NCBI GenBank assembly: GCA_029907355.1
Contig: JARYLZ010000001.1
Coordinates: 64,522 to 128,521 of the forward strand
Direction: 5' to 3'
Source of the DNA: Bacteroidota bacterium
GTDB taxonomy: Bacteria; Bacteroidota; Ignavibacteria; SZUA-365
DNA: 64,000 bases
Under the pieces are notes generated by a model that was not told the origin of the DNA, ran no database searches, and saw nothing but the letters and a program-made list of their open reading frames with translations. This document shows, piece by piece, positions 26,036 to 51,504 of the stretch (position 1 is its first letter; every line of letters starts with the position of its first letter). Made by a program: the position numbers and the translations under genes.

Positions 26036-26131
26036 CTTTCATCCCGGTTTATCTCGGGTATAGATCTTCCCATTCGCCGCGAACAGCACCCGCTTAACAT
26101 CACAAATGTTCAATACCTCACACAAGAAATA

Positions 26132-27076: not shown

Positions 27077-27306
27077 CGTCCTCAATGATTTCTCCTTTCT
27101 CTGGGCTCGAATCAATTTTTGCAGTCACGCTATCTAAAAGAAATCCATTTTAGGGTCCGCGAGTACCTATCGGTGCATGGAAGCGCATAGAATCCATTCA
27201 TGAATAGACAGTCCTCTCCATCCGATAATAGAAAGACATCATAGCAGGAATGAAAATCCGCTGGATTCAACTCGTATAGGTAAATAGAACTTCTCGAAAG
27301 AAACGG

Positions 27307-29391: not shown

Positions 29392-29438
29392 CATGCTGGA
29401 CGTCCAGGCGAGGGAGAGAACATGCTATCGCTAACTTT

Positions 29439-32400
29439 TCAATTGTGGATAAATTGGGAAACAGCGTCGGTAGTGAAATTCACTGCAACGATCTTCGAAA
29501 CGCCCTCTTCTTCCATGGTGACTCCATAGAGGGTATCCGCAGCCGCCATAGTTTTCTTATTGTGAGTGACGATGATGAATTGGATGTTATCGGAGAAAGA
29601 TCGAAGAATTCGGAGGAACCGGTCGATATTTGCATCATCGAGTGGAGCGTCAACTTCATCCAGGATACAAAAAGGGCTTGGTTTCACGAGGTAGATCGAA
29701 AAAAGCAAGGCGATGGCGGTGAGGGTTTTCTCGCCCTGAGAAAGCATCTCTATAGAATGAGGGCGCTTTCCGCTGGGTTTCGCGATGATATCTATTCGTG
29801 CTTCGAGGGGGTCTTCACCATCGGCGAGAATAATGTCCGCTTCGTCGCCCTTTTCGAAAAGTGATTGAAATACGTCAAAAAAGTTCTTTCGTATTTCGTT
29901 GAACGTTTCAAGAAATTTTGTTTTCGCCGTCTCATTGATTTCCTGAATTGTCTCCGTCAACGTTTGTCGTGACTCGATGATATCCTCACGTTGAGCGAGC
30001 AAGAGATCGAGGCGCTCTTTTTCCTTCCTCCATTCCTCAAAAGCGAGAGGATTCACAGGCCCGAGCGTTCGGATTTTCTCACGGAGCACATTGATCTCCT
30101 CCTTCGCTTGTGAAAGGTCGAAAACATCCTCCTCCCCGCTCAGGTCCTCCGTTTCGATTGACGATAATTCGAATTCATCCCGTGCTCTTTGTTCGAGCGT
30201 CGCCATTCGGTGGCGTATTTCTTCTATTTTAAGTTCGGTTTCGTGAACGATCGACGTCAAACGATTGAAATCCTGGCGAAGTCCGTGGAGAACATTTTCC
30301 CTCTCTTCGATCACGTGCCGCAGGTCGGATAGGGTCTTCTCGACGCTCCGGACCCTTTCCTCGGCGGAACGACGTTCTTCTTTCCATTGCTCAAGCGTCA
30401 ACTGAGTGGAAGTGCGCTCCTTGAGAAGCGCTTCGAGTAGCCGTCGGGCATCCACAATCTCTTGTTCGGTCTGGGTCACCAAACGATGCAGCTCGAGGAA
30501 AGAGTCTCGATAATGATCGCGTTGATTGAGAATGTTCTGGATTTCAGCCGATTTCCCCACACGCGCCAAGTGTTTGTCGTTTAGAGTAGTCATGCTCCGA
30601 GAATATTCCTCTTCGAGGCGATGCAATTCACATGACTCCATCTCGATTTCGATTTCCATGCTTTCCTTCTCTCGCTTGCAACGTTCGAGTGCCGGGAGTA
30701 GTGCACTGTGCTCTGCAACATCGCGTTGGTACTCCTCTATGAGAAGAGCTCGTTCATCGGTGATTTTTGAAAGAGTCCGAACATATTCATCTTCCTCGAA
30801 AATCATCTGGGCAGTGTGCTGTTCAAAGGTTGAGAGGTCTTGCTGGGACTGCTTCATGTTTTCGGCGTATTCTTTCAGGTCAATAGACTCGTATTCCTGA
30901 ACCTTTCTTTCCACCAACTGCTGATTTTTCACTAATGCTGCTTTCAACTCTTGAACTTCGCGTTCCAATCGAGAAATTTTTTCTTTCTTCCCGATGATTC
31001 CCACCTCCTCTTGGTTGTTACTACCGCCTCGAACTAATCCATTGCTATCGAAGAGATCACCATCAAGCGTTACACAACGGATGTCACGGTGTTCGCGCAT
31101 ACATCGATGGGCGGTTTCTGCGTCACGAACGATGAGAACATTCCGAAGGAGAAATTGAAAGAGGGGAAGGTATGTCGTCGGACACGAGATCAGATCGATC
31201 GCCCAGCCGAAGATCCCCTCTCCAGCAATTGAGAACGGAATGGCAACGCTTTCCGGTATCCGGGAGAGACATACGAAAGTCGCTCTTCCCTTCCGTTGAT
31301 CTTTGAGAAGGTATAGACCGGTAATGGCTTCTGCGATATCATGTACAACAATGTACTGCGCCGCCTCGGTAAGAGCCGCTTCGATTGCCGCACGATAGGT
31401 TTCCTTCGTATCGACTACATCGGCTACTGTCACGATATCTGTCACAGACCACTCACGGTTCTGAAGTAAATACTGGACGCTTTGCGGATACCCTTCAAAT
31501 CTACTCACGAGACCCGAAAGAAAATCCAACTGCGTCATTCGTTCCCCAATTTTACCCTGTAGATCGAACGAAATATTCTGCAAGCGGTCTATCTCGGCCC
31601 GCAGAGCTTGTTTCCTTTCTTCCATTTCATGGAATTTTTGCTCAGCACGTACAGCTGACTCGAGAATTCCGGATCTCTTTATTTTTTCTCTAGAAAGACG
31701 CTCACGAACAGTTTGAAGTGCGCTGGCTATACGGTTTTCATCCTCCGCAAGTTTCTCTAGGCGGTTTTTCGCCGCTTCCATACGAGTCGCGTATCGATCG
31801 ATTTCACTCTGGACCTGCGACAGCTTCTCATGCACTTGAAGAAGAAGACTTCGACGGCGATCGGCATCGAGTTTTTTTTGTGATACAACGCTTTCAAGAT
31901 CCGTGTGAATCGAGCGATGCTCCATTTCATCTCGCTCAATGATAGCAAGTTCATTCTCAAGCTTTTCCAACTCGATAACCGCTTGCGCCTCGTTTCTCTG
32001 CATCTCCTCAATCCGCCGAGTGTAGGACTCTTTTTCACCTTGAAGACGTTGGATCGTCTCAAGAATATTTCTTTCCCTCTCTGCATTAACTGCAAAATCT
32101 TGTTCACAATTCATGATTTTAGAGATCCAGAGAGCTAATTCGCCACGAGCCGAGTCCAACCGGTTCTCAATTTCCCGCTCGCTTACCCGATACGATTGAA
32201 GTTGTGCCTCTTCACGGATCACATTTTCTTCAATGGAGAAACGTAACATAGTATCAGCCTTCAAACGTTCCGCCAGTGGTCCAAGTCTCCCCGCCAGCGT
32301 TGTATAATCCCTTTTTATCACATCGATCTCAAGGGATCGAAGCCTTTCAATAAGATGATTATACCGTTCGGCCTTTTTGGATTGACGAATGAGAGAATTC

Positions 32401-33005
32401 ACCGAACGGGACACTTCAGAAATGATATCGTCGAGCCTGACGAGATCCGCTTCTATATCCTCCAATTTTTTCAGTGTTTCTTTGCGTCGAATCTTGTATT
32501 TCGTCACACCGGCGGCTTCTTCGAATAATTTTCTTCGCTCCTCGACCTTATCGTTGAGAATAGACTCCACCATTTTCAATTCGATGACGGAATATGCATT
32601 GGGTCCCATCCCCGTATCCATGAAAAGCGACTGGATATCCTTCAAGCGACATTGTGTGCCGTTTAAAAAATACTCGCTTTCCCCGGATCGGTAGAGACGA
32701 CGGGTTATGGTCAATTCGGAATATTCAAGGGGTAATACACCTTTATTATTCTGGACGGTAACGGAAACCTCAGCCATGCCCACGGACTTTCTCGCTTTCG
32801 TTCCGTTGAAAATGACGTCTTCCATACGGTCACTCCGCAGCACGGAATACCTCTGTTCACCGAGTGCCCACCGCAAAGCATCGACTATATTCGTTTTCCC
32901 GCACCCGTTCGGACCAACGATAGCGGTTATTCCATCGTTGAAAACGACACTCGTCTTCAACGCGAAAGACTTAAAACCGAAGATATCAAGTTTGCAAAGG
33001 TACAT
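29439..33005 (-). CDS. smc: chromosome segregation protein SMC
   Basis: N-terminal MYLCKLDIFGFKSF...GPNGCGKTNIVDA is the Walker A. The middle is long coiled-coil sequence rich in E/K/R/L. The C-terminal LSQGEKTLTAIALLFSIYLVKPSPFCILDEVDAPLD carries the signature and Walker B motifs. The ORF track start at 33131 adds 42 non-SMC residues. The Met at 33005 gives a canonical 1188-aa SMC. Confidence 0.9.
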   Translation of the reverse strand: MYLCKLDIFGFKSFALKTSVVFNDGITAIVGPNGCGKTNIVDALRWALGEQRYSVLRSDRMEDVIFNGTKARKSVGMAEVSVTVQNNKGVLPLEYSELTITRRLYRSGESEYFLNGTQCRLKDIQSLFMDTGMGPNAYSVIELKMVESILNDKVEERRKLFEEAAGVTKYKIRRKETLKKLEDIEADLVRLDDIISEVSRSVNSLIRQSKKAERYNHLIERLRSLEIDVIKRDYTTLAGRLGPLAERLKADTMLRFSIEENVIREEAQLQSYRVSEREIENRLDSARGELALWISKIMNCEQDFAVNAERERNILETIQRLQGEKESYTRRIEEMQRNEAQAVIELEKLENELAIIERDEMEHRSIHTDLESVVSQKKLDADRRRSLLLQVHEKLSQVQSEIDRYATRMEAAKNRLEKLAEDENRIASALQTVRERLSREKIKRSGILESAVRAEQKFHEMEERKQALRAEIDRLQNISFDLQGKIGERMTQLDFLSGLVSRFEGYPQSVQYLLQNREWSVTDIVTVADVVDTKETYRAAIEAALTEAAQYIVVHDIAEAITGLYLLKDQRKGRATFVCLSRIPESVAIPFSIAGEGIFGWAIDLISCPTTYLPLFQFLLRNVLIVRDAETAHRCMREHRDIRCVTLDGDLFDSNGLVRGGSNNQEEVGIIGKKEKISRLEREVQELKAALVKNQQLVERKVQEYESIDLKEYAENMKQSQQDLSTFEQHTAQMIFEEDEYVRTLSKITDERALLIEEYQRDVAEHSALLPALERCKREKESMEIEIEMESCELHRLEEEYSRSMTTLNDKHLARVGKSAEIQNILNQRDHYRDSFLELHRLVTQTEQEIVDARRLLEALLKERTSTQLTLEQWKEERRSAEERVRSVEKTLSDLRHVIEERENVLHGLRQDFNRLTSIVHETELKIEEIRHRMATLEQRARDEFELSSIETEDLSGEEDVFDLSQAKEEINVLREKIRTLGPVNPLAFEEWRKEKERLDLLLAQREDIIESRQTLTETIQEINETAKTKFLETFNEIRKNFFDVFQSLFEKGDEADIILADGEDPLEARIDIIAKPSGKRPHSIEMLSQGEKTLTAIALLFSIYLVKPSPFCILDEVDAPLDDANIDRFLRILRSFSDNIQFIIVTHNKKTMAAADTLYGVTMEEEGVSKIVAVNFTTDAVSQFIHN

Positions 33006-33141
33006 GCGAACAGCGAGACAATTAATGAGTACAGGAAAGAGATCGTGTTTATTAAGATTCTGGAAAACAAGGGAATGGGACCATATATTGCATCGAGAAA
33101 GATAAATCTGGGAACGCGGATGAACACCCAAAAGATATTAT

Positions 33142-35790
33142 TTAGAAATGTGAATGCGCAAATACAGGCAACCATTTATGTATCATGTACTGAATATAGA
33201 AAAATGTTTCATGACGTGAATCCAAAACCCACAAGGTGACAAAAACGACAAGAAATGACGTGATATACCCGATGAAATAAAACATTCCGACTTTACTCTC
33301 GAGTAGAATGGCTGCACCTTTTAAAAGTCTTGAAAAAACCCAAAAATGAAAAACCACAATAAGAGAAAAGAACACAGCAGTCAGGGATACAGGTGACAAC
33401 AAACGTGTTAATACAAGTCCGAGAGGCAGAAGAAAAAGGATGGGAATAACACTCCACATGGCAGCACTATAAGTGTCGAACAAAGTAAGAGATTTTCTTC
33501 GCATCAAAGCGACAATACGAATCAGAATGGCGAAAACGATGAGCAGGAAAAACAATACACAGGCAAATAGAAGAATATTAGTAAACGGATTCCAGGCATT
33601 GAACACTAGGAAACTCTTTAACCCCATAGATGGGATGAAAACACTCAACCATTCATCAAAAGCGAAATTCGTACGAAAGGAGAAAAGTATATTCGCAAAG
33701 AGCAAGGCTGAGGTTAGGCACCCAAGAAAACCGATAGAAGTTGTCTGAAATATTGAGAGTACTCGACGGTCCCGAATATCACAATAAAAATTGTAGGGAC
33801 GAAGCAAAGACCGACTAATATTCTCACGGAAACGTCTGAATATATTATACATAGAAGCAAATATCGCAATGAGCAACAAGCCGATAATGACAAATATGAT
33901 GGGGAACTCCTCATTGAAATTCGCTACGACAAGTGAAGGTGATTTTTCATCGTTGAACCTTGCCTTAAGAATATCATAAGCAATCCTCTTATGCCTTAAT
34001 ATATCAAGGAAACCCACACTTGCCATTCTTTGATCCCGTACTCCCATGGTGAGAAAAGGAATTGAAACGGGATAATCGCAGAACGAATGGAAAAACACAC
34101 CGGGGAGTTTTCGCTTTACAACGTCAGAATACACTACAGAAACAAACTGAGCTTGTGCATCAAGAGAACGGGGATCATTTATTCCGTTATTATTATTGAT
34201 TTCAACGGGATAATAGATGGAACCAATCAAAAATTGCCCTGAGCTATGGAGGGTATCTAAACTTTCCCACATCACTTCAAGCCTTTTCATATCACAGGGA
34301 GGAATATCAACAGCAGAAAAATCTAAACCAGTGGGTATTTCACGTATGCCGGGAAAAAGAAAAGATGCATATACGAGAAGATCGGAATTCGTTTTCACTA
34401 CTGATGACATTTCAGATAAATAAGGAGAATACCCTTCTGTATTCCAATCAATCGAACGGGCCAGACCAACAGCCACGATACAAGGATGATATGCATATTT
34501 CACCAACATATCGCGCACAACATTCCTCGCAATCGATAAAAATCCCCATTTACTTAAAAGAGGTGAAGGTACTTGAGATACCGGCATATCCTGAAAAACG
34601 AGCAATCCATATTTGTCGCAGAACGAATAGAACATGGGATGAACCGATCCATTCATCAACCGAACAGCATTCGCTCCTAAGTTTTTCATTATCAATACAT
34701 CTTTCTCGATTTCTTCAATCGACATCGAACTCCCTCTAGAACCTGAAATACCGTAATACGTCACGCCTCGGATAGAAATCTGAGAGCCATTTAGTGATAA
34801 ACGATTGTTTGCAGAGCGAATAAAACGGAATCCTGTTTGGAGAACAGCTTCATCTATCAATATCCCATTATGAAAAATCTTCTGAACAATGATATAGAGA
34901 TACGGGTTCTCCGGGGACCAAAACTTCACTTGGGATAAATCCAACATCAGAGAAAAAGAAACCATACGATCAGGGGCTATCGAAAAACGGGTCGGGACAC
35001 TTCGAGCCACGAAGCCCCCCGTCTGAGCATCAAAAACTTCTAATGTGTGTTCAAATGTCGTTTTTCCTGTACCGGTATTCGATGAAGAGTCTCTCTGAAT
35101 ACGCGAAACATTTGAACTGGAATTGATAAGAGTACGATATGAAAGGGTTACGGATTTCCCATCCGGTAAAAAAATAGGACGGAGAATTGTTTCTTGAACC
35201 CATACCGGACCTGTAGCAATGATTGCTATATCCTGAAGAATACCACCGAAATGGACTGGATCCCACAAGCGCTCTTCTACGGGAATAGTTTCACTTGAAC
35301 TCAACGTATTGTGAACAAGAACAACGATTTCATTCTGACCAGCATGCAAAACATCGTTCGGAATTTTTAAAGTAAAACTTGTTTCCCCGGCATGTTTCCC
35401 GATAAAATGACCATTAATGGAAATCTCGGAGTAATACGAGATCTGCAGAGCTACAAAATGAAATGAAGCTCTTGCAAGAAGTTCCGGTGCAATTTCGAAG
35501 CTCTTGGAAAATATAACAGGTAACGAACCGATAAAAGAAGAAGGAACTGTGACAGTATACCATGATTCCGATTTGAGCGTTCGATAACGCCAAACACCAT
35601 TGAGATCGATAACAGAACGAGTGGAAGAATTTTTTAAAATTCCCACATCCCCATCAGTAAAAGACCGTATACACGGTTTAAAGAATTGTATTTGTGGGAT
35701 ACAAATAGAAGAAAAAATTGGCAGAATAATTGAAAAAATAAAAAAATAGGAAATCTTTATCCCACAACGAGTATAATGCGACAGGTACAT
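33142..35790 (-). CDS. glycoside hydrolase family 2-like protein fused to a C-terminal multi-pass membrane domain
   Basis: The N-terminal jelly-roll reads LNGVWRYR. The GH2 hallmark WSPENPYLY is present. The TIM-barrel start is GFRFIRSANNRLSLNGSQISIRGV, followed by NAVRLMNGSVHPMFYSFCDKYGLLVFQDMP. The last roughly 270 aa form at least 6 hydrophobic helices. The gene is strongly AT-rich. Confidence 0.75.
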   Translation of the reverse strand: MYLSHYTRCGIKISYFFIFSIILPIFSSICIPQIQFFKPCIRSFTDGDVGILKNSSTRSVIDLNGVWRYRTLKSESWYTVTVPSSFIGSLPVIFSKSFEIAPELLARASFHFVALQISYYSEISINGHFIGKHAGETSFTLKIPNDVLHAGQNEIVVLVHNTLSSSETIPVEERLWDPVHFGGILQDIAIIATGPVWVQETILRPIFLPDGKSVTLSYRTLINSSSNVSRIQRDSSSNTGTGKTTFEHTLEVFDAQTGGFVARSVPTRFSIAPDRMVSFSLMLDLSQVKFWSPENPYLYIIVQKIFHNGILIDEAVLQTGFRFIRSANNRLSLNGSQISIRGVTYYGISGSRGSSMSIEEIEKDVLIMKNLGANAVRLMNGSVHPMFYSFCDKYGLLVFQDMPVSQVPSPLLSKWGFLSIARNVVRDMLVKYAYHPCIVAVGLARSIDWNTEGYSPYLSEMSSVVKTNSDLLVYASFLFPGIREIPTGLDFSAVDIPPCDMKRLEVMWESLDTLHSSGQFLIGSIYYPVEINNNNGINDPRSLDAQAQFVSVVYSDVVKRKLPGVFFHSFCDYPVSIPFLTMGVRDQRMASVGFLDILRHKRIAYDILKARFNDEKSPSLVVANFNEEFPIIFVIIGLLLIAIFASMYNIFRRFRENISRSLLRPYNFYCDIRDRRVLSIFQTTSIGFLGCLTSALLFANILFSFRTNFAFDEWLSVFIPSMGLKSFLVFNAWNPFTNILLFACVLFFLLIVFAILIRIVALMRRKSLTLFDTYSAAMWSVIPILFLLPLGLVLTRLLSPVSLTAVFFSLIVVFHFWVFSRLLKGAAILLESKVGMFYFIGYITSFLVVFVTLWVLDSRHETFFYIQYMIHKWLPVFAHSHF

Positions 35791-36110
35791 TGGAAGGGAA
35801 ATAAAAGTTGTTGATGGGAATGCGCTTCAACGCGTAAGGGAAAGAGATGATAAGATTCGCACTTTAATTTGAAAGAAAAAATAGTGACAAGAACTCTGCC
35901 AAGCACATAGTGGTAAGAGAATAATAATTCTATCTCGATGGGTTTGGATTCGTTCTCTATTCTCTATGACCCATCATGTCAATATGTGGTAAGAAAATCA
36001 TATCCATCTCGATAAAAAATAGCATGGATAAATAGCCGACAAATCAACAACTATTACCTTATGCTACAAAAAAACAATAAGATAATACATGTTTCACATG
36101 GAACCCAAAA

Positions 36111-37967
36111 TTATGGATGTTGTTTTTGTTTCTTTGCTTGTTCTTCGAGAGATTTCATTGCTCGTTCTAAAACTCCAGATTTCTTACTTTTTTGAACTTT
36201 GACAAGTTGAAAATTTTCTTTTTTTCGTGAAATCCACCACTGTTGTAAAATTGAAAGGAGGTTAAACGAAAAATAATAAAGATTTAAACCAGAAGGGAAA
36301 TTGTTAAACATCATCCAAAACATCAATGGCATAATATATATCATCGCTTTTTGACGAGGATCTTTCACGGTTTGCTTTTGCTGTATGTACATTGTAATTG
36401 CCATCAGAACAGAAAGCAAACTTATGAAATTCGTCCCAAGTATTGGAATTTTAAATGGTAAGGTAAACAAAATATCCGGTGATGAAAGATCAGAAATCCA
36501 TAAGACAAACGGTTGATGACGAAGTTCAAAAGTCGATCTAAAAATGGTAAAAAGGGCAAACAAAATTGGCATTTGCAACAAAAGAGGAAGACAACCGCCT
36601 GCAGGATTTATACCATAGTCCTTATATAACCTCATGATTTCAGCGTTCTGCTTCTGAGGATCATCCTTATACTTGGTCTTGATATCATTCATTAAAGGCT
36701 GCAATGCCTGCATTTTTTTCATCGACGTCGTACTGCTCTTTGTGAGCGGATAAAGAATTAGTTTTATTATGATCGTAAAAACAAGGATAACAAGCCCATA
36801 ATTTGGAATGAATTTATGAAGAAACGCAAAGAGAGGAATGATCAGATACTCGGAAAAAGGTCTTACGATAAACTTCCAACCTAAACTTATCGTCTGTTCC
36901 AAACCTGCGTATTCGCTCTTTAAAAGATCGTACTGCATCGGTCCGATAAATATCCTCAGTTTTGCAGTCTCGTCCTTTCTTTCATCGAAATGGATTTTCA
37001 TGCTTGCCTGATAAATCTCTCTTGATCCATTAAAAGGCAATGGTATATGTACCCCCTCTAAAAATGCCCCTATTCCTCTAAACTCATCTCGACACAATAA
37101 AGCCGAAATGAAGTATTTGTTTTGGACGGCAACCCAGTTGGTATTTCCATTCAAACTTTTTTCCTCAATATCACCAATTTTTGTTACATCTAATGTATAT
37201 CTTTTGCTATCCACATACGCATTTGCTTCCGAGAAAGCAGCCTCCTCAACAGTATTAAGTTCTGTCAATGCAGGCGATCCAATCGTAATCTGGTACTCAT
37301 TATTTGCTATTATTTCGCCCATGTTTAAAAATCGAACATCGAGATCCACGTGATATGCATTTCCATAGATTGTATACTCTTTGATTATCATGCAACTATC
37401 ACCGATCACTTTTAAAACGTAACGAAATGTAAGTTTTGATGTATCGTGTATAAAAATTGAATCTCCATCCATAAGATCAGGGGAATCGAAGAAAAAGTTC
37501 TCCGTATGTATTTCCTTACCATCTTTTGTAATAAAGAATAGATTCGCTTCACTGATTGCCTTCCAGTCAATCAGCTGTAACGGTGATCTGTTCCACGTGG
37601 AATAACCTTTCAATATCCAGCGTTTGATACCGCCCCCGCGAGATGTAAAAACAGCTGAAACTTTTTTGGATTCAATTTTAATGTTTCTTTCTACACCTAT
37701 AGAAAGCCCCCCAAACCATTTCCCGTATTTCGTTTGTCGGTTTGTTATACTTTCGCCTCCTAAATCTTTTTTTTCTATTGGTTTTGCCTTTTTTTCGGGT
37801 ATCTGCTTCCCTGATCCAGCAATTATCGAGTCTGAGTATTTTTTCTGCTCAGTTTCAACAGGTTTTTGGTACTGGACGCTTGTGTACACCATCCAGATAA
37901 TGAAAAGGATGGCCATCAATATAAAACCGATAATACTTTGTCTGTCCATAGAAATCTTACTGTTCAA
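36111..37967 (-). CDS. yidC: membrane protein insertase YidC
   Basis: N-terminal TM anchor, large periplasmic domain, and a C-terminal five-TM core carrying the GGCLPLLLQMPILFALF motif. The gene order rpmH-rnpA-yidD-yidC is conserved. Confidence 0.9.
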   Translation of the reverse strand: MNSKISMDRQSIIGFILMAILFIIWMVYTSVQYQKPVETEQKKYSDSIIAGSGKQIPEKKAKPIEKKDLGGESITNRQTKYGKWFGGLSIGVERNIKIESKKVSAVFTSRGGGIKRWILKGYSTWNRSPLQLIDWKAISEANLFFITKDGKEIHTENFFFDSPDLMDGDSIFIHDTSKLTFRYVLKVIGDSCMIIKEYTIYGNAYHVDLDVRFLNMGEIIANNEYQITIGSPALTELNTVEEAAFSEANAYVDSKRYTLDVTKIGDIEEKSLNGNTNWVAVQNKYFISALLCRDEFRGIGAFLEGVHIPLPFNGSREIYQASMKIHFDERKDETAKLRIFIGPMQYDLLKSEYAGLEQTISLGWKFIVRPFSEYLIIPLFAFLHKFIPNYGLVILVFTIIIKLILYPLTKSSTTSMKKMQALQPLMNDIKTKYKDDPQKQNAEIMRLYKDYGINPAGGCLPLLLQMPILFALFTIFRSTFELRHQPFVLWISDLSSPDILFTLPFKIPILGTNFISLLSVLMAITMYIQQKQTVKDPRQKAMIYIMPLMFWMMFNNFPSGLNLYYFSFNLLSILQQWWISRKKENFQLVKVQKSKKSGVLERAMKSLEEQAKKQKQHP

Positions 37968-38177
37968 TCATGGCACTGGATCGTGACCGTACCCTCCCCA
38001 GGGGGCACAATGGAGAATTCTTTTCAAACTTAAAAAAACTCCTTTTAACGCACCGTGTTTGTTAATCGCTTCGATTGCATAGGAAGAACACGTTGGTATG
38101 TACCTGCATGAAGATGGAAAAAGGGGCGAAAGAACCCCTTGATAGACATGTATGATAAATATTAATGCTTTTTTCAT
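37968..38177 (-). CDS. yidD: membrane protein insertion efficiency factor YidD
   Basis: 69 aa. [35 protein letters not shown] is the YidD signature. The gene abuts the yidC start. Confidence 0.85.
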
Positions 38178-38180
38178 CCG

Positions 38181-38600
38181 CTATATCCTAATTACTCTCC
38201 ATTGAAGAGTACCCATGATATCCGACATTATTCTCTTTATTTCACGAAAAGTAGGCATGTTATCGTTTGCGCTCCCATCGTAGAGAAAGACACAAGATAC
38301 ATTCAAGCCATGCTGTTGACAGAAATCATGGAGAACTTGCTTCTGAAGTCGGTAGGCTTCGCGCATGAGCCGTTTGATTCGGTTGCGCCGAACATTTTTC
38401 CTAACCCCCTTCACAGCAAATCCCACCTTACATTCGTAAGGTGGGATCGATCTTTGATAGGTAAAATAACATCGGAGCCTATCTTTTATAATTATTCTTC
38501 GCCCTTTCAAAACACGAGCGAAAGAATGATAACCCCTGATAATCTCCGATTTTTTCAACCCATGTGTCTTCGTCACATCATCTATAACGCGGTTCATCAC
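38181..38600 (-). CDS. rnpA: ribonuclease P protein component RnpA
   Basis: [22 protein letters not shown] and the basic RNR motif [21 protein letters not shown] are present. The true start is probably an internal Met or alternative start, because the first codons overlap rpmH. Confidence 0.75.
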
Positions 38601-38733
38601 TGACGGTTAGCTTCCATCTTCCCTTTGCACGTCTTCGGGCTAAAATCTTTCTTCCATTTTTTGTTTTTATCCGTTGACGGAATCCATGCGTATTCCGTCT
38701 TTTTCTTACACTTGGTTGATAAGTCCTTTTCAT
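38578..38733 (-). CDS. rpmH: 50S ribosomal protein L34
   Basis: This gene is below the ORF-track length cut-off. Reverse-strand translation gives [51 protein letters not shown], which matches the L34 consensus (MKRTFQPS..KR...HGFR.RM.T..GR.VL..RR.KGRK.L). It sits immediately upstream of rnpA. Confidence 0.85.
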
Positions 38734-39008
38734 ATGATTTCACTCGGTTAAAGTAGAGATTCCAATATTACAAATCCTTGCATTTGAAAGCAAACGATAT
38801 TTCTATGAAGGAAAACCAAGGAACTTTTTCAGATTCACGAAGGATACATATTAGGATCGTTATAACGACTACAAAATCTCATTGTTATGTCGGAAGGACC
38901 ATTCTATTCTATACCATTGTTTCTTTTAATTTTATCTATTGTTCTCACACTTTCTAACGAGTGAAATTCATCTCAAAAAATCGATGGGATTTCAAATATT
39001 GACTTGTT

Positions 39009-40652
39009 CTACCACATGACTTCCGTTTTGAGGAAGACGGTTCCTTCGTTCTCACCCCTTTCTTTTTTAATATCTTTTGTGAATCGATATGTAAAGCTCA
39101 TTACAATATCCTTTATCGGCTCATAGCGAAAACCGGCTTCGACCACATACTTGTATTCCTTTGGCCCTTCTAAAAATCGTGCCGTCTGGTTATCTCTCTC
39201 AAAATCAAATTTTACCGTCACATCTCCCCCATGATTTCTAATTAAATTACCCGTGGAATCATACTCATTTGCCCCGTGCCGATCCATGCTGAGGCACACC
39301 GTAGATTCGAATTTTGTTGAGGGTTTCCATGATATCGAGCATCGAATTCTGTCGCTGTTAGGGGGAAGATCCAATCCCAAGGCTACTCCATTCATCGTAT
39401 AATCGTTATTTCGGAAAATATGGCTGTAAACATATGGTTCAATACGGGTGTACTCCATACCTATACGGGTATCAGTGAAAAGGTCGTCATTAAGCACCCC
39501 TATCTGCCAAATAAATTTATTTCCCCACCACCCATTTCCTATTTTCCCGAAATCAATGTCATCGATGAGCCAAGATCCATAGAATTCGGTCCCTTTAAGA
39601 CACAGTGATTGCATTTCAATTCCCAGCATCGGGTTATCCCGATCTCCCGTAGCATGTTCAACTGATTTAAAAAAATTCACCGGAAGAAGGTATGCAGGAT
39701 CGAGCGATCTCTGGGAGTAGATAACCGATTCGAAAAGTCCGACTCGCAGGAACTGAAAAAGATCCATCTCCGCTCGATGATACACAAGATATTTTCCCGG
39801 GTAGTGTGGGCGTGCATTTTCCACGAGTTCTTTTTCCCCCATGAGAAAGCCATGGATGTAGGTAAAGCGAAAATCACTCGTGAAGACATCGAATCGAAAT
39901 GCATCGAAAACACGTGCGCGATCGCTTATTATTGTCTTCGACCAGGGGCTGTTTCCCACCATGATGCGTTCTCTACTCAAAGACAATGCACCCCACGACC
40001 ATCCATGCGAAAGATGTCCTTCACTCAAGTCAAAGAATGCATTTCCCCAATCCGCGAAGTTTACCGCTTGTTTGAGAAAAGGGTCCTTCCTCGCGTAGCT
40101 CGTGTCACCGGATAATGTCCCATTCGTAGCCTGCATCCCATACCCTAAAACACCCCCAAAGGTCCCGCGTATTCTTCCCCCGACACGTCCCATGAAAACG
40201 TTCGAGCTCTTCTTTTTGTTCACGAAAAAACGATATTCGATTGAACCTAAAGCCTCGATGTACAACCGAGAATTGTGATCTTCACTTGCCCAGGTGTAGA
40301 GATATTTCTCATCATCAGAAAGTATCCCTTTTGTCCCATCTCGAAAGAGAACCGCCGCCCTCTGATTACCTTCCTCTTCCTCGATGAATTCATTACGATA
40401 GCGAAGCAAAAGACTTTTCTCTCCCTCTTCCAGTTCATCGATACGTGTATCTATTTGTCGAAGGAAAGAGGTTATCGCCCTTCGTTCTAGAGGCAAGATG
40501 GTTCTGCTGTACCCAGTAACGATTTGTTTCACATGCATTCGGTCGAGGAAGTCATAGACCGGGTGGTTCGCCGGGACATGTTCCATCTGAGTTCGTGCCG
40601 TTCCTGGGAGAAGGACAAACAGAGTAATGAGAACAGCACGGCGGAGGTTCAT
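39009..40652 (-). CDS. outer-membrane beta-barrel protein, possibly Wzi-like capsule/EPS assembly protein
   Basis: Signal peptide (LLPGTARTQ). The N-terminal region is helical. The body shows the amphipathic alternating aromatic/Gly-rich strands typical of beta-barrels. The final residue is aromatic (W). It is adjacent to a polyprenyl-phosphate sugar transferase. The family assignment is tentative. Confidence 0.6.
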   Translation of the reverse strand: MNLRRAVLITLFVLLPGTARTQMEHVPANHPVYDFLDRMHVKQIVTGYSRTILPLERRAITSFLRQIDTRIDELEEGEKSLLLRYRNEFIEEEEGNQRAAVLFRDGTKGILSDDEKYLYTWASEDHNSRLYIEALGSIEYRFFVNKKKSSNVFMGRVGGRIRGTFGGVLGYGMQATNGTLSGDTSYARKDPFLKQAVNFADWGNAFFDLSEGHLSHGWSWGALSLSRERIMVGNSPWSKTIISDRARVFDAFRFDVFTSDFRFTYIHGFLMGEKELVENARPHYPGKYLVYHRAEMDLFQFLRVGLFESVIYSQRSLDPAYLLPVNFFKSVEHATGDRDNPMLGIEMQSLCLKGTEFYGSWLIDDIDFGKIGNGWWGNKFIWQIGVLNDDLFTDTRIGMEYTRIEPYVYSHIFRNNDYTMNGVALGLDLPPNSDRIRCSISWKPSTKFESTVCLSMDRHGANEYDSTGNLIRNHGGDVTVKFDFERDNQTARFLEGPKEYKYVVEAGFRYEPIKDIVMSFTYRFTKDIKKERGENEGTVFLKTEVMW

Positions 40653-42058
40653 GTATGCCCTCGCCCTCTGAGCACATTATAAGTCGTCGATAATAGGATT
40701 TTCAAATCCATCCTAATCGACATGTTCTCGATGTAAAATAGATCGTAACTCAGTTTCGTTCTCACATCCTCGATGCTCTGATCGTACCTGTGCTTGACCT
40801 GAGCCCAACCCGTTAGTCCAGGTCGGACATTCAAACGACGTCTATAGAGCGGTATTTCCTTGATAAATTTCTCAACGAAAAAGGGACGCTCCGGTCGCGG
40901 ACCGACGAGACTCATATCACCCTGAAGGACATTGATCATTTGGGGGAGTTCATCGAGGTGGGTTTTCCGGAGAAATCTTCCCAGCGGTGTTACACGCGGG
41001 TCATCTTTTTGTGCCCAACGGGGTCCGGTCTGTTTTTCCGCATCGACGTACATTGTTCTGAATTTTATGATCCGAAACGTTTTCATATCCTTCCCCACAC
41101 GTTGCTGCCTATAAAAAACCGGACCGGGATTCGTCAGTTTTTGAGCCACCGCAAGAATGAGGAAAAGCGGGGCACCAAGCGTGAGGATGACCAAGGATAC
41201 TGTAATGTCAATTGCGCGCTTTAAAAAAGCTTCCCATGGTGCTAAAAGTTGAGGAGTAACCTCGATCAGGGGTATCCCATAGAGTTGATTCGTCCGCGCC
41301 TGTCCCGAAACGATGTCATACATATCCGGACGTATTTTTATCCCAACATTAAAAGCGCTACATCTTCCTATAATTTCAAGGAGGAGTTCATGTTCTGTTG
41401 AAGCAAGGGCAATTAAGATTTCTTCAATATTTTCTCGTTTTATGACATCCTCCAGATCAGATAACTCTCCAATTTTTTGAAGACAATGATTCTTTTCGTC
41501 ATGTGCATCACTATCGGTGAAAATTCCACCGATAACGCGATAACCTAATGCCGGGAAATTTTCGACGAGGCATTTTAGTTCCTCAGCCTTTTTTCCACTT
41601 CCGACGATGAGCGTATTTCTGTGCCCTATACCTGCGAGCAACATGCGTCGACGCACACTACGTACGCATGCACGCCCGGAACCCACAAAAACGAGGAGAA
41701 TTGCCCAGTATAAAACGATTTTCAACCGTGATGTCGCCGTCTCCTGCGTTAATGCATCGTCAAGGAAAATCACGAAGAAAAGAATAATGACGCCGAATGT
41801 GACGGCTTTACCGACCAGGATCAGCTCATCGACGCGGGATTTGGCCCACCATGGGCGATACAACCCAAAAAGCCAGAATACGATGAGCCAGTAGAGGTTG
41901 ACAACCATCATAGGGAGAAAAAAATCTGGAATGGTCGGGAGGATAAATAGACCGGATCGTACACGGATGTAGTAATAAGCCATCCATGCCAAGGAAACGG
42001 CTATGACATCCGCAAGGAGCAGAACCCATAATTCTTGGATTCTTCTACGTCCACCCAT
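40649..42058 (-). CDS. exopolysaccharide polyprenyl glycosylphosphotransferase (WbaP/CpsE-type bacterial sugar transferase)
   Basis: N-terminal TM helices. The C-terminal domain reads PGPVFYRQQRVGKDMKTFRIIKFRTM...LDELPQMINVLQGDMSLVGPRPERPFFV...RPGLTGWAQV, which is the Bac_transf (PF02397) signature. Confidence 0.9.
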   Translation of the reverse strand: MGGRRRIQELWVLLLADVIAVSLAWMAYYYIRVRSGLFILPTIPDFFLPMMVVNLYWLIVFWLFGLYRPWWAKSRVDELILVGKAVTFGVIILFFVIFLDDALTQETATSRLKIVLYWAILLVFVGSGRACVRSVRRRMLLAGIGHRNTLIVGSGKKAEELKCLVENFPALGYRVIGGIFTDSDAHDEKNHCLQKIGELSDLEDVIKRENIEEILIALASTEHELLLEIIGRCSAFNVGIKIRPDMYDIVSGQARTNQLYGIPLIEVTPQLLAPWEAFLKRAIDITVSLVILTLGAPLFLILAVAQKLTNPGPVFYRQQRVGKDMKTFRIIKFRTMYVDAEKQTGPRWAQKDDPRVTPLGRFLRKTHLDELPQMINVLQGDMSLVGPRPERPFFVEKFIKEIPLYRRRLNVRPGLTGWAQVKHRYDQSIEDVRTKLSYDLFYIENMSIRMDLKILLSTTYNVLRGRGHT

Positions 42059-42262
42059 CTTTCCCTATCCACATCCTGATGCAAGAGATGAAATATTTCA
42101 TTCAGAAATTGAAAATACTCGTTTTTTCATCCATGGGAAATGTGTCCTCAGGAATGGATTTTGCCTGTATCCGTATGATTCTTGTTTCGCTTCTTCCTTT
42201 TCCCAAAAAAGAACCGGAATTCTTTCAAGGGATCATGATTAGCATATAGAATCGGTCATTCA

Positions 42263-45259
42263 TCATGGGGGATCTTCTTTCCCGCTGTCGATACTTGCGA
42301 GTGCTTGCCGGACAGCATCATGAAGAACAGTACGGAATGGAAGAAGAAGTGTGTTCGTTCTCGTCGGGTGAATTCGATTTGTGAGAAAGACAACGGCGAC
42401 CTCCGCTTGCGGGTCCACCCAAATCGATGTCCCAGTAAAACCGGTATGTCCAAATGATTCGAACGAGAAAAACCGACCTGCCGATGAACCGACCGAAGAT
42501 TTCCCATCCCAACCGAGTGCTCGTGGACCAGGAAACTGTTTGTGGGTGAACATCTCCACTGTTTTGCTTTTCAGAAAACGTGTCCCATTAAACTCACCCC
42601 CATTCATCAACATCAGGATGAACCGACCGAGATCCGTCGCTGTCGAAAAAAGACCGGCATGACCCGCCACACCACCCAGTAACGCTGCACGTTCATCATG
42701 GACCTCCCCTTGAAGGAGGCGATGTCTCCATACCGAATCGTATTCCGTTGGGGCACAGAAGGCTTTCAAGGAATCCGGCGGCAGAAACATCGTATGTTTC
42801 ATACCAAGCGGTTTGAAAAAGATTTCCTCGGTGTAGCGATCCAACGATTTCCCGACGATACTCTCGATAACTTTGCCAAGGGCAATGATCCCGATATCCG
42901 AGTACACTGTTTTTGTTCCTGTCGAGTACACGAGCCGTTCCGAAAGCATGGTATCGAGAGCTTGTTCGGCTGTCGAACAGAATGACTCGTAAGATCTGAA
43001 TGCAGGTAGGCCGCTGTTGTGCAGGAGTAGATTTCTAACCGTGACCTTTTCCTTGCCGTTTTTCCTAAACGCAGGAAGATACACTTCTACCGGGGTGTCG
43101 AGATCGAGGCTTCCTTCCTCCACTAACTTCATAGCCGCAGCCGTCGTTGCAATGACTTTGGTCAACGAGGCAAGATCGTACATCGTATTGGAATCGACGA
43201 CCGGTGAGGAAGGTGAATACGTCAAACGGCCGTATGAACGGTAGTAAACCGGCGTTCCGCCATGAATGACTAAGAGTTGGGCACCGGGGAATGCGTGTTG
43301 CCGGATCGCTTTTTCGACAAGCGAATCAACTCGACGGAAATCGGCCTTGCGAGTTCGGTCGTTCGTGATATGGGAGAATCCCAGAGCAGTACCGCGCAGG
43401 GCAATTCCAGGGATCGTTATAGGGAGAGCACCAGTTGGATTGGTTTCCCCGACAAGAACCTCAATCCCAGCGGTGATTGAAGCATCATCGTCACCATACA
43501 TGCAGATATACGCATTCACCCAAGGCACCGCTGTGATCACATACGGATTGCCAAAGGATATTAACACCGCTCGAGGGCAACCGCGAGCAATCCTTTCAAG
43601 AAACATTCGCTGGTCCCGGGAAAAGGTGATCTCGCCTGTCCCTGGTTCTGCTTTGACAAACGAAGCGAGAACAAGACAACTTGATTTCCGGACGATCTTC
43701 TCCCATCGCTTGATATCTGAACGTGTCACGGCCCGCTCCACCGTGTAACATTTCGCAGCAGGAAACCGCCTAACCATTTCTTTTTCAAACCGCTCTGTAA
43801 TCCTCCTATCCCCGTGAGTGATAAAAGAGAGACACGTGATATTCCGTGTGGTTTTTCCCTGGAGGGGTAAAATCCCCGAGTTGTTGCGAACGAGAGTGGC
43901 TGCTCTCCGGGCGAGGTCCAATGCAAAAACACGATGCGTGCTGTCCTGCAGAGTCGAATCCATAGCTTGCCGGTTTGGTAAACGATGCGTGGACAGACCA
44001 AGCCACTCCTTGTAGCGTAGAATGCGGCGAACCGAACGATAGACCTGTAAGGTATCAAGCGTCCCCTGGCTAAGTGCTAATGCAACAGCTTTTACGGCTG
44101 AGAAAGGATCATGCGGCATGAGAATTATGTCCGCGCCTGCGCGAACCGCTTCCACGCAGGCGGAATCATTATTAAACGATCTCCCTACCGCCTTCATATT
44201 CATTGCATCAGTGACAATAAGACCCTTGAAACCTATAACACCGCGAAGAAGCGAATCGAGAACCGCCCCCGACAATGTTGCAGGTCGTATACCCCCTGTA
44301 TCGATTATCGCAAGGGCAAGATGCCCCGTCATAATCGCCAGCACACCGGCCCGAACGACATGGCGGAACGGAACGAGTTCGACGGAATCCAATCGACATT
44401 GAGAATGCCAAAGCGTCGGGAGATCGGTATGAGAATCTCTCTCGGTATCACCGTGACCGGGAAAGTGTTTTGCCGTGGCTATCACCCTTTCATCCTGAAT
44501 GCCCCGCAAGTACGCCTCGGCAAGCTGTGCGACAAGTTCCGGTTCTTCGCCGAATGAACGAATGTTGATGACAGGGTTGAGGGGGTTGTTGTTCACATCG
44601 ACGACGGGAGCATAATTCTGATAGACTCCGAGGGCACGTGACTCCTCGGCGACCATTCGCCCCAAGGTGTACGCAAGTTCCGGTGAGCGGCAGGCACCGA
44701 CTGCCATTGCCGACGGAAATGAGACGGCATCTCTGAGACGCATCCCAAGGCCGTTTTCGAAATCTGCCGAGATCAACAGTGGTACCTGAACCTGCGACTG
44801 AGCCCATTCGATCAAGCGGGTGGCTGCTCCCACCGTACCCTTCGATAAAACGAGCCCTCCCACACCGAGATCGGAGAGAAACGGCCGAAGGCGATGCAAA
44901 GTCACTTCACTCGTGTCTCCATAGGTGAAAGGGACAATCATTTGCGCAATCCGCTTTTCGAGTGTCATCGAGGCGAAAACACTATCGACCCATGGTGTCG
45001 AAACGGAAGGATGGACCGGCTCGAGATCGTCGATCAGCAATGAATCAGGCGGAAGTTCGGACAAGCGAACAGGGGGCAGACAGTGGCTTTCCCCCACGGT
45101 TGGAGGAGCAGATCCGAGCGACGGGAGAGCAAGATTCCCATTGCTCGCGACAGGTTCCATCGACGAGCATGCCGCAAGGAAAAAGAGTGCGGAGTAAAGA
45201 ATCGTCGCGAACCGAATCCATCGTTCACGAAATGCAGATCGGGGAGGATGAGCGGACAT
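42263..45259 (-). CDS. lipoprotein fusing a GH3 (NagZ-like beta-N-acetylhexosaminidase) domain to a beta-lactamase/PBP-like serine hydrolase domain
   Basis: The lipobox is LAAC. The N-terminal half (KRIAQMIVPF, GGLVL, LISADFENG, ATAKHFPGHGDTERDSHTDLP) is a GH3 N-domain with the catalytic D-x-x-KHFPGHG region. The C-terminal half carries the SxxK motif (ASLTKVIA) typical of class C beta-lactamase / AmpH-like hydrolases. Confidence 0.85.
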   Translation of the reverse strand: MSAHPPRSAFRERWIRFATILYSALFFLAACSSMEPVASNGNLALPSLGSAPPTVGESHCLPPVRLSELPPDSLLIDDLEPVHPSVSTPWVDSVFASMTLEKRIAQMIVPFTYGDTSEVTLHRLRPFLSDLGVGGLVLSKGTVGAATRLIEWAQSQVQVPLLISADFENGLGMRLRDAVSFPSAMAVGACRSPELAYTLGRMVAEESRALGVYQNYAPVVDVNNNPLNPVINIRSFGEEPELVAQLAEAYLRGIQDERVIATAKHFPGHGDTERDSHTDLPTLWHSQCRLDSVELVPFRHVVRAGVLAIMTGHLALAIIDTGGIRPATLSGAVLDSLLRGVIGFKGLIVTDAMNMKAVGRSFNNDSACVEAVRAGADIILMPHDPFSAVKAVALALSQGTLDTLQVYRSVRRILRYKEWLGLSTHRLPNRQAMDSTLQDSTHRVFALDLARRAATLVRNNSGILPLQGKTTRNITCLSFITHGDRRITERFEKEMVRRFPAAKCYTVERAVTRSDIKRWEKIVRKSSCLVLASFVKAEPGTGEITFSRDQRMFLERIARGCPRAVLISFGNPYVITAVPWVNAYICMYGDDDASITAGIEVLVGETNPTGALPITIPGIALRGTALGFSHITNDRTRKADFRRVDSLVEKAIRQHAFPGAQLLVIHGGTPVYYRSYGRLTYSPSSPVVDSNTMYDLASLTKVIATTAAAMKLVEEGSLDLDTPVEVYLPAFRKNGKEKVTVRNLLLHNSGLPAFRSYESFCSTAEQALDTMLSERLVYSTGTKTVYSDIGIIALGKVIESIVGKSLDRYTEEIFFKPLGMKHTMFLPPDSLKAFCAPTEYDSVWRHRLLQGEVHDERAALLGGVAGHAGLFSTATDLGRFILMLMNGGEFNGTRFLKSKTVEMFTHKQFPGPRALGWDGKSSVGSSAGRFFSFESFGHTGFTGTSIWVDPQAEVAVVFLTNRIHPTRTNTLLLPFRTVLHDAVRQALASIDSGKEDPP

Positions 45260-47961: not shown

Positions 47962-48097
47962 CACCTTTTCCCACTCGTACTCCACTTCTACACAACAGAA
48001 GGGTTGAATGTTTCCACTGCACTCTCTCAAGGGCAACGGGTGACGGGAATGTCCCATCCTGCCCTCGTAACCGAGGATGTTGCGGTCGCTCGCCCCC

Positions 48098-51499: not shown

Positions 51500-51504
51500 G
51501 CCGG

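What the first reader, a model, noticed from the sequence alone, without database searches (positions are those of the whole stretch)
33100..39000. Sharply AT-rich island containing core genes rpmH-rnpA-yidD-yidC and the GH2-membrane fusion
Sampled 60-nt lines here are about 32-38% GC. Most of the window is about 55-60%, and the surface-protein locus is about 48-50%. Codon choice switches with it: Leu TTA/TTG and Ile ATT/ATA dominate here, against CTC/CTG and ATC in lepA. The smc gene (about 48%) and the region out to about 42 kb are intermediate. Core, vertically inherited genes in an AT-rich block is unexpected. The options are a replaced (xenologous) operon, an unusual local mutational or expression regime, or a chimeric assembly join.
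Basis: seen in the sequence. Interest (0 to 1): 0.55.

Follow-up and report, generated by a model that had tools for sequence, protein, structure and literature searches.

The report
Native core genes in AT-rich trough
A 6.7-kb stretch holding essential housekeeping genes is about 17 points poorer in G+C than the rest of this bacterial contig, yet the genes look native rather than imported, so a local evolutionary force is the likeliest cause, though this is not proven.

Summary
Segmentation puts a 38.4% GC core at 32,965-39,677, against 54-56% in the far flanks. In-frame GC3 is 0.31-0.39 in the core against about 0.62. The left edge is sharp, at the smc start. The right edge is a ramp. Shoulders of 46-49% GC reach to about 18.9 kb and 44.2 kb. 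The gene calls are correct: smc, a GH2-like/multi-TM fusion, yidC, yidD, rnpA and rpmH.

The genes look native.
- The order rpmH-rnpA-yidD-yidC-GH2f-smc is conserved in about 15 relatives.
- The best homologues of LepA (GC-rich flank), YidC (core) and the Wzi-like gene (right shoulder) all come from one metagenome.
- Relative branch lengths of YidC match those of LepA.
- Tetranucleotide usage is closer to the contig's own flanks than to low-GC relatives.
- There is no integrase, tRNA, flanking repeat, DnaA-box cluster or skew switch.

The trough is not a family trait. Among the 83 relatives compared first, yidC GC3 averages 0.05 above its neighbours. It spans a junction specific to this lineage: BacTr-Wzi are compositionally normal in relatives but AT-shifted here, beside rpmH.

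Best reading (about 0.5): a position-dependent, long-standing AT-biased regime, possibly a recombination/gBGC coldspot. Replacement from an unsampled low-GC close relative, or an assembly mosaic, cannot be excluded without reads.

The parts
32965..39677 (.). Compositional core of the trough: 38.4% GC, GC3 0.31-0.41
   Evidence: Likelihood segmentation; in-frame GC3 bins; 300-bp profile.
18882..32964 (.). Left shoulder: 46-49% GC, GC3 about 0.43-0.66. Holds surface-protein genes and smc.
39678..44240 (.). Right shoulder or ramp: 48.3% GC, GC3 0.45-0.54
29439..33005 (-). smc. The likely ATG is at 33,005; the listed ORF starts at a TTG at 33,131. GC3 is 0.50, intermediate.
   Evidence: Pfam SMC_N, SMC_hinge. 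N-terminus MYLCKLDIFGFKSF. Adjacent to the GH2 fusion in relatives. GC12 lies on the GC3 regression and the lineage-specific amino-acid changes are AT-directed, 69:31.
33142..35790 (-). GH2-like domain fused to a C-terminal multi-TM region (882 aa). GC3 is 0.357.
   Evidence: Pfam Glyco_hydro_2 and Glyco_hydro_2_C, partial. Weak LacZ-type NCBIfam hits far below cut-off. Orthologues of 866-889 aa lie between yidC and smc in 15 relatives. The TM segments were read by eye from the translation.
35791..36110 (.). yidC-GH2f spacer, one of two local GC minima (31-33%)
   Evidence: The spacer length varies from 184 to 1,807 bp in relatives, and some carry a methyltransferase gene there.
36111..37949 (-). 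yidC (612 aa). GC3 is 0.36 and GC12 is 0.367.
   Evidence: Pfam 60KD_IMP 4.9e-61 and YidC_periplas. Translation. 63% identical to L001. Regression of GC12 on GC3.
37968..38177 (-). yidD (69 aa)
   Evidence: Pfam YidD 3e-29.
38181..38600 (-). rnpA (RNase P protein). GC3 is 0.44.
   Evidence: Pfam Ribonuclease_P 1.3e-10.
38578..38733 (-). rpmH (L34, 51 aa)
   Evidence: Translation. 83-92% identical to relatives by tblastn.
38734..39008 (.). Lineage-specific junction between rpmH and the Wzi-like gene, and the second local GC minimum (about 33%)
   Evidence: Relatives have FecCD or RNR upstream of rpmH, and a GT2 gene downstream of Wzi. GC profile.
39009..40652 (-). Wzi-like capsule-assembly protein (547 aa). 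GC3 is 0.465.
   Evidence: Homologues carry PF14052 and some are named 'capsule assembly Wzi family'. The orthologues in L172 and L174 have GC3 equal to their local background.
40649..42058 (-). EPS polyprenyl glycosylphosphotransferase (Bac_transf). GC3 is 0.47.
   Evidence: Pfam. TIGR03025 at 453 bits, above its cut-off. 71-73% identical to L172 and L174, where its GC3 equals the background.

Best explanation
The block smc, GH2-fusion, yidC, yidD, rnpA, rpmH is this organism's own, vertically inherited. It sits at the bottom of a graded regional trough in G+C, about 25-30 kb wide with a 6.7-kb floor. The trough is attached to the chromosomal position, not to the genes.

Inferred mechanism: the force that keeps this genome near 55% GC is weak or absent here. 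That force could be GC-biased gene conversion linked to homologous recombination, or selection for GC. Without it, the universal AT-biased mutation pressure has carried synonymous sites, intergenic DNA and, over time, the amino-acid make-up towards a low-GC equilibrium (GC3 about 0.36). A recombination coldspot around a lineage-specific rearrangement junction is one concrete way to get this.

Shown: the trough, the nativeness of the genes, the dependence on position, and the age of the shift. Inferred: the coldspot/gBGC cause.
For: (1) Synteny. rpmH-rnpA-yidD-yidC-GH2f-smc is conserved in about 15 relatives.

(2) Congruent relatives. The best LepA hit (86%), the best YidC hit (63%) and the best Wzi-like hit (about 51-52%) all come from JGI sample 3300021603. 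The next-ranked LepA hit (85%) and the second-best Wzi hit are both from GCA_016218045.1.

(3) Branch lengths. The window/L001 branch ratio is 1.40 for LepA and 1.30 for YidC. (a+b)/c is 1.08 for LepA and 1.13 for YidC.

(4) Position dependence. In L172 and L174, BacTr-Wzi lie in an EPS cluster with GC3 equal to the background (0.79/0.77 and 0.63/0.63). In the window they abut rpmH and have GC3 of 0.47/0.465 against 0.62. smc is normally at or above its background in relatives, but is 0.50 here.

(5) Graded shape, with one ramped edge.

(6) Age. GC12 of YidC, GH2f and SMC lies on the cross-species regression of GC12 on GC3: YidC 0.367 against a predicted 0.382, z = -0.9. Window-specific replacements are AT-directed.

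(7) Signature. Tetranucleotide z-scores of the core correlate with the contig's own far flanks at r = 0.47, against 0.21-0.30 for low-GC relatives.

(8) No tRNA, Rfam hit or flanking repeats.

(9) The two nearest relatives show mild dips at the same locus: L001 rnpA-yidD 0.51 and yidC 0.60 against 0.67-0.74; L170 0.53 and 0.59 against 0.63-0.67. More distant relatives show none.

(10) Literature. Gene GC correlates positively with recombination in most bacteria, and coldspots mainly hold housekeeping genes (PMC4450053; PMC11879095).
Against: - A GC3 drop of about 0.26 is, to my knowledge, far larger than the recombination-associated GC differences reported within bacterial genomes.
- No recombination rate was measured here.
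- The left edge is sharp and coincides with a gene boundary, which looks more like a junction than a diffusion-like gradient.
- The floor is centred near 36 kb, not on the 38.9-kb junction.
- The dinucleotide signature of the core is far from the flanks: delta* is about 101, against 26-50 for most flank segments.
- Core-versus-flank tetranucleotide r (0.47) is just below the flank range of 0.51-0.72.
- The left-shoulder surface-protein genes could be lower in GC for unrelated reasons.
- That the three contigs from sample 3300021603 belong to one organism is likely but not proven.
Confidence: 0.5

Rival explanations
1. Orthologous (in-place) replacement. The GH2f-yidC-yidD-rnpA-rpmH segment was recently swapped for the same segment from an unsampled low-GC organism. 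That donor would have to be closer to this lineage than L001 is.
For: - Sharp left edge at a gene boundary.
- Flat GC3 floor of 0.31-0.39 over 5 kb.
- Amino-acid make-up fully equilibrated to low GC.
- Dinucleotide signature unlike the flanks and closest to a 39%-GC relative, L029, at delta* 41.
- A sister-lineage donor would give the same YidC tree position and branch ratios as vertical descent.
Against: - All 17 sampled members of the clade that shares the GH2f-yidC arrangement have local GC of 47-64%; none is near 38%.
- RecA-type replacement between genomes 17 GC points apart is improbable (general knowledge).
- It does not explain the AT shift in smc, BacTr and Wzi, or the ramped right edge.
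- Tetranucleotide usage is closer to the host flanks than to low-GC genomes.
- No mobility genes, tRNA or repeats.
Confidence: 0.2
2. Assembly artefact. The contig is a mosaic in which a stretch from a co-occurring, related low-GC population was stitched in at the syntenic position.
For: - The window comes from a metagenome-type contig of 130,531 bp, a single contig on record.
- No independent assembly of the organism was found to confirm the joins.
- The composition of the core is foreign-like by dinucleotides.
Against: - It needs two joins at exactly syntenic positions between genomes too different in GC to share long k-mers.
- The right edge is a ramp, not a step.
- Genes on both sides of each putative join are themselves AT-shifted in a graded way.
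- All ORFs across the edges are intact.
Confidence: 0.12
3. Local AT-biased mutagenesis rather than loss of a GC-favouring force. One candidate is transcription-associated cytosine deamination on the non-template strand of a strongly expressed co-oriented gene run. Another is a replication-related fragile zone.
For: - All genes from 29.4 to 54 kb are on one strand.
- At 4-fold sites the coding-strand change from C to T (-0.18/+0.19) is about twice the change from G to A (-0.10/+0.10).
- In smc the shift is almost purely to T.
Against: - The orthologous operon shows no such effect in 80 or more relatives, where yidC GC3 is at or above the background.
- The GH2 fusion and the EPS genes are unlikely to be highly expressed, yet are shifted as much.
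- Both strands shift.
- No GC-skew switch and no DnaA-box cluster, so this is not an origin or a terminus.
Confidence: 0.13

Closest known systems
Recombination-linked GC heterogeneity in bacteria (gBGC hypothesis; Lassalle et al. 2015, PMC4450053; Torrance et al. 2024, PMC11879095)
   Same: - Lower GC at synonymous and intergenic sites in a block of housekeeping genes.
- The direction agrees with the AT-biased mutational equilibrium.
- Recombination coldspots are reported to hold mainly housekeeping genes.
   Different: - The magnitude, a GC3 change of about -0.26, is to my knowledge far above the reported within-genome differences.
- The trough is only kilobases wide.
- It is specific to one lineage.
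- Recombination itself was not measured.
AT-rich genomic islands acquired by horizontal transfer
   Same: - Abrupt left edge.
- Atypical GC, codon usage and dinucleotide signature.
- AT-richer than the host.
   Different: - The cargo is essential core genes in their ancestral order.
- Nearest relatives and branch lengths match those of the flank.
- No integrase, tRNA or direct repeats.
- Neighbouring native genes are partly shifted too.
GC3 structuring along the chromosome, meaning AT enrichment near the replication terminus (Daubin and Perriere 2003, recalled from memory and not read here)
   Same: A position-dependent fall in GC3 that affects native genes regardless of their function.
   Different: - That effect spans hundreds of kilobases and a few per cent of GC3.
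- Here there is no GC-skew switch, and gene orientation is uniform across the trough.
Classical rpmH-rnpA-yidD-yidC cluster next to dnaA/oriC
   Same: Same gene order and co-orientation.
   Different: - No dnaA in the window.
- No DnaA-box cluster: 11 matches against 11.4 expected, with only one in the core.
- No skew minimum.

Membership tests
Horizontally acquired genomic island | Composition atypical of the host | tested here: met
   38.4% against 54-56% GC. GC3 0.36 against 0.62. delta* about 101.
Horizontally acquired genomic island | Mobility hallmarks: integrase or transposase, a tRNA target, flanking direct repeats | tested here: not met
   No tRNA. No flanking repeats beyond chance matches of 14-30 nt. 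All ORFs in 29-45 kb have housekeeping, EPS or glycosidase Pfam hits.
Horizontally acquired genomic island | Absent from, or differently placed in, close relatives | tested here: not met
   rpmH-rnpA-yidD-yidC-GH2f-smc is conserved in about 15 relatives.
Horizontally acquired genomic island | Phylogeny incongruent with the flanking core genes | tested here: not met
   Same nearest relatives and matching branch ratios for YidC and LepA. These were three-point distance comparisons, not full trees. A donor inside the window's own stem lineage cannot be excluded.
Chromosomal replication origin (oriC) region | Cluster of DnaA boxes in an AT-rich spacer | tested here: not met
   TTATCCACA with up to 1 mismatch: 11 matches against 11.4 expected, one in the core, none in the spacers.
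Chromosomal replication origin or terminus | Sign switch of the GC skew | tested here: not met
   Cumulative skew falls from about 0 to -2.1 across the window, with small local reversals and no turning point. 64 kb is a short span for this test.
Recombination coldspot with reduced gBGC | Lower GC specifically at synonymous, 4-fold and intergenic sites | tested here: met
   GC at 4-fold sites is 0.29-0.40 in the floor against 0.55-0.77 in the far flanks. Spacers are 31-33% GC.
Recombination coldspot with reduced gBGC | Measured deficit of homologous recombination (r/m), or an AT-to-GC fixation bias in the flanks that is absent in the trough | not testable with these tools
   This needs population or strain-resolved data. 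No second genome of this species was found.
YidC/Oxa1 insertase (identity of the central gene) | 60KD_IMP core domain plus the periplasmic domain, above Pfam cut-offs, with intact conserved residues | tested here: met
   205.9 bits against a cut-off of 35, and 73.5 against 24. More than 140 columns are invariant across 22 orthologues that include the window's protein.

The most novel reading that the evidence does not exclude
A kilobase-scale stretch of a 55%-GC bacterial chromosome, holding essential and vertically inherited genes, has escaped whatever force keeps the genome GC-rich and has relaxed to the raw mutational equilibrium (GC3 about 0.36). The effect is tied to chromosomal position, spreads in a graded way into neighbouring genes, and crosses a lineage-specific rearrangement junction. 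If so, it would be a natural in-genome control for measuring the strength of gBGC or of selection on GC in bacteria.
Probability: 0.3. Interest if true: 0.7.

Novelty: new variant of a known kind. Interest (0 to 1): 0.45.

Why it matters
Why bacterial genomes are GC-richer than their mutation bias predicts is an open question: selection, or biased gene conversion. A native core-gene block about 17 GC points (about 26 GC3 points) below its own genome would give an internal contrast for that question, provided the assembly is verified. The genes, the lineage and the cell are the same; only the local regime differs. Population sequencing across the trough could then test directly whether recombination and AT-to-GC fixation bias are missing there.

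There is also a practical point. Composition-based HGT and contamination filters would flag this block as foreign, and with it the only visible copies of rpmH, rnpA and yidC. Removing it would make the genome look incomplete.

Tried and rejected
- Exact look-up of the window's own YidC in public assemblies found nothing on record, so there was no independent assembly.
- The metagenome scan with YidC found only relatives of 47% identity or less. The organism was not found there, so the chimera test failed for lack of data.
- The idea that the dip is a conserved trait of the yidC locus was rejected. The whole-GC dips in L001 and L002 are mostly GC1 and GC2 of a hydrophobic protein. Across 83 relatives, yidC GC3 averages 0.05 above its neighbours.
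- A donor among low-GC Ignavibacteria was rejected. Their YidC is only 40-45% identical, against 49-63% for the GC-rich clade, and their tetranucleotide usage correlates poorly with the core.
- oriC or terminus was rejected: no DnaA-box cluster and no skew switch.
- Mobile element was rejected: no tRNA, no Rfam hit, no meaningful repeats.
- SMC seemed at first to lack the window-L001 sister signal that YidC shows. Three-point branch lengths showed all the genes fit one topology. SMC and GH2f are relatively more diverged in both lineages, so this is not evidence of transfer.
- The sigma-70 promoter and terminator scan gave counts at or below chance, and it does not suit promoters of the Bacteroidota type.
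- The 'deletion junction' idea for the yidC-GH2f spacer was set aside. The spacer length varies from 184 to 1,807 bp among relatives, and the window's 321 bp is within that range.
Full report
**Observation**

The window is mostly 52-58% GC. It falls to 34.5-40.7% between 33 and 39 kb. In 300-bp windows the left edge is abrupt: GC goes from 0.45-0.49 to 0.36-0.38 between 32.8 and 33.2 kb. On the right, GC climbs gradually from 39 to 44.5 kb.

A likelihood segmentation gives six segments:

| Segment | GC |
|---|---|
| 1-18,881 | 53.6% |
| 18,882-31,458 | 49.1% |
| 31,459-32,964 | 46.3% |
| 32,965-39,677 | 38.4% |
| 39,678-44,240 | 48.3% |
| 44,241-64,000 | 55.6% |

Per-gene GC3 is 0.36 for the GH2 fusion, yidC and yidD. 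It is 0.44 for rnpA, 0.50 for smc and 0.465-0.47 for the two genes upstream of rpmH. Far-flank genes are mostly 0.57-0.68.

In-frame 750-bp bins and 4-fold sites show the same pattern: a flat floor of 0.31-0.39 from 33.0 to 38.25 kb, with shoulders on both sides. GC1, GC2 and the amino-acid make-up are shifted too. The only correction is that just one edge is sharp.

**What is there**

Pfam confirms the following genes, all on the minus strand:

- smc, 29,439-33,005. The true start is MYLCKLDIFGFKSF.
- An 882-aa GH2-like protein with a multi-TM tail, 33,142-35,790.
- yidC, 36,111-37,949.
- yidD, 37,968-38,177.
- rnpA, 38,181-38,600.
- rpmH, 38,578-38,733.

Upstream of rpmH lie two further genes:

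- A 547-aa protein whose homologues carry the Wzi capsule-assembly domain.
- An EPS priming glycosylphosphotransferase.

The flanks carry T9SS-tailed surface proteins, lepA and recQ. YidC relatives are Ignavibacteria/Bacteroidota MAGs. The best is 62-63% identical and the rest are 58% or less.

**Native or foreign**

*Synteny.* The closest YidC relative is L001, from JGI sample 3300021603. It has the order yidD, yidC, two small genes, an 879-aa orthologue of the GH2 fusion, then smc. A 5.2-Mb MAG contig (L002) has rpmH, yidD, yidC, GH2f, smc. By tblastn, about 15 relatives keep this order.

*Shared relatives.* The table lists the best and next-ranked homologues of three genes from different parts of the trough.

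| Gene | Position | Best hit | Next-ranked hit |
|---|---|---|---|
| LepA | GC-rich left flank | 86%, sample 3300021603 and MAG GCA_964388275.1, with the window's own DUF362-DUF6599-lepA-lepB-lepB-hemN order | 85%, GCA_016218045.1 |
| YidC | core | 63%, sample 3300021603 (L001) | 58% (P0003, Logan contig L170) |
| Wzi-like | right shoulder | about 51-52%, sample 3300021603 | about 51-52%, GCA_016218045.1 |

*Branch lengths.* Three-point branch lengths give a window/L001 branch ratio of 1.40 for LepA, 1.30 for YidC, 1.28 for SMC and 1.38 for RnpA. The ratio of tip branches to stem branch is 1.08 for LepA and 1.13 for YidC. The AT-rich yidC therefore has quantitatively the same history as the GC-rich lepA.

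*Signature and mobility marks.* Markov-normalised tetranucleotide z-scores of the core correlate at 0.47 with the contig's own far flanks. Flank segments score 0.51-0.72, and low-GC relatives score 0.21-0.30. No tRNA, Rfam family, flanking repeat or mobility gene was found.

A distant-donor xenologue is therefore rejected.

**Not a family trait, and old**

In 83 related loci, yidC GC3 minus neighbour GC3 averages +0.05, with a range of -0.06 to +0.30. The window stands at about -0.26. The deepest 5-kb GC dip in 110 related loci (2.09 Mb) is -0.074, against -0.11 to -0.145 here.

The two nearest relatives do show mild dips at the same locus:

- L001: rnpA-yidD GC3 is 0.51 and yidC is 0.60, against 0.67-0.74 in its flanks.
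- L170: yidD is 0.53 and yidC is 0.59, against 0.63-0.67.

Across 160 YidC orthologues, GC12 tracks GC3 (r = 0.91). The window's YidC has GC12 of 0.367, which lies on that line (predicted 0.382). It is below the whole range of its GC-rich clade, 0.408-0.470. GH2f and SMC behave the same way, and the window-specific replacements are AT-directed: 24:15, 57:28 and 69:31. The low-GC state is therefore at equilibrium, not a recent burst.

At 63% amino-acid identity to the nearest relative I would expect synonymous sites to be saturated. That is an inference. It means the trough cannot be a relic from before that split. It is either maintained in place or was imported recently.

**Position dependence**

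In L172 and L174 the BacTr-Wzi pair has the same 4-bp overlap as here. It sits inside an EPS cluster, is followed by a GT2 gene, and has GC3 equal to the local background (0.79/0.77 and 0.63/0.63). In the window the pair abuts rpmH and has GC3 of 0.47/0.465, against a background of 0.62.

Relatives have Obg-FecCD, or RNR, upstream of rpmH. So 38,734-39,008 is a junction specific to this lineage, and the AT shift crosses it. smc is a syntenic core gene that is at or above its background in relatives. Here it is also shifted.

A discrete imported block or a stitched-in contig does not predict graded shifts in native genes on both sides. A regional regime does.

**Mechanism**

The region is not an origin or a terminus. 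The cumulative GC skew has no turning point, gene orientation is uniform from 29 to 54 kb, and DnaA boxes are at the chance level.

At 4-fold sites the coding-strand change from C to T is about twice the change from G to A. This allows some strand-asymmetric deamination, but both strands shift.

The floor is GC3 of about 0.36 with spacers at 31-33% GC. That is the kind of value expected if AT-biased mutation ran without a counter-force. That expectation rests on general knowledge, and Hershberg and Petrov 2010 is cited within PMC11879095.

Gene GC correlates positively with recombination in most bacterial species, and coldspots mainly hold housekeeping genes (PMC4450053, abstract; PMC11879095). 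My best explanation, at about 0.5, is therefore a local loss of the GC-favouring force, with a recombination/gBGC coldspot as one concrete model. The cause is inferred, not shown. The magnitude is, to my knowledge, much larger than published within-genome effects.

**Rivals**

- Replacement from an unsampled low-GC sister lineage (0.2). This fits the sharp left edge, the flat floor and the foreign-like dinucleotide signature (delta* about 101). It does not explain the shifted neighbours, and it lacks any known donor: all 17 clade members are 47-64% GC.
- An assembly mosaic (0.12). It could not be tested, because no second assembly exists in the collections searched. It would need two syntenic joins and does not predict a ramp.
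- Local mutagenesis (0.13). This is a variant of the in-place model.

**Verdict**

This is a real and strong compositional anomaly on native core genes. It is unusual enough to deserve read-level verification and population analysis. Its cause is unresolved, and an artefact has not been excluded.

Noticed in passing
window 33142-35790 (-); orthologues in L001-L016: An approximately 880-aa protein combines a GH2-like sugar-binding/Ig/partial TIM region with a C-terminal tail. The tail looks like about 7 TM helices, read by eye. It is conserved between yidC and smc in at least 15 Ignavibacteria/Bacteroidota relatives. Only weak LacZ-type hits were found, far below cut-offs. Its function is unknown.
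   Followed up: partly
window 38734-42058; L172, L174: The EPS priming pair BacTr-Wzi is detached from the rest of its EPS cluster, which in L174 holds GT2, Wzy, a flippase, Wzz and Wza. In the window the pair is joined to rpmH, so this is a rearrangement specific to the lineage.
   Followed up: partly
window 12751-13500 and 19001-20000: Two further short GC dips (GC3 0.44; 43.9% GC) lie at the two ends of the 2,127-aa surface-protein gene. The second is the spacer between the two divergently transcribed giant surface-protein genes, 13221-19604 (-) and 20162-26035 (+).
   Followed up: no
window 42263-45259 (-): A 998-aa fusion of GH3 (N- and C-terminal domains) with a serine beta-lactamase-fold domain lies directly upstream of recQ.
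   Followed up: no
window 45259-48057 (-): RecQ (932 aa) carries an extra C-terminal HTH_40 domain after RQC and HRDC. A gap of about 375 residues separates the Helicase_C match from the zinc-binding match.
   Followed up: no
L001 11406-14973: smc of the closest relative is called as two ORFs, of 1,125 and 82 aa. This is either a frameshift or an assembly error in that metagenome contig.
   Followed up: no
L006, L011, L012, L016, L049, L050, L065: Public MAG records titled Chromatiales, Ectothiorhodospiraceae, Chitinophagaceae or Synechococcus carry an Ignavibacteria-type yidC locus. L006, L011, L012 and L016 also carry the GH2f-smc arrangement. The labels are probably wrong, or the bins are contaminated.
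   Followed up: no
window 3973-5876 (+); L164, L169: Two tandem signal-peptidase-I genes follow lepA. The arrangement is conserved in the nearest relatives.
   Followed up: no
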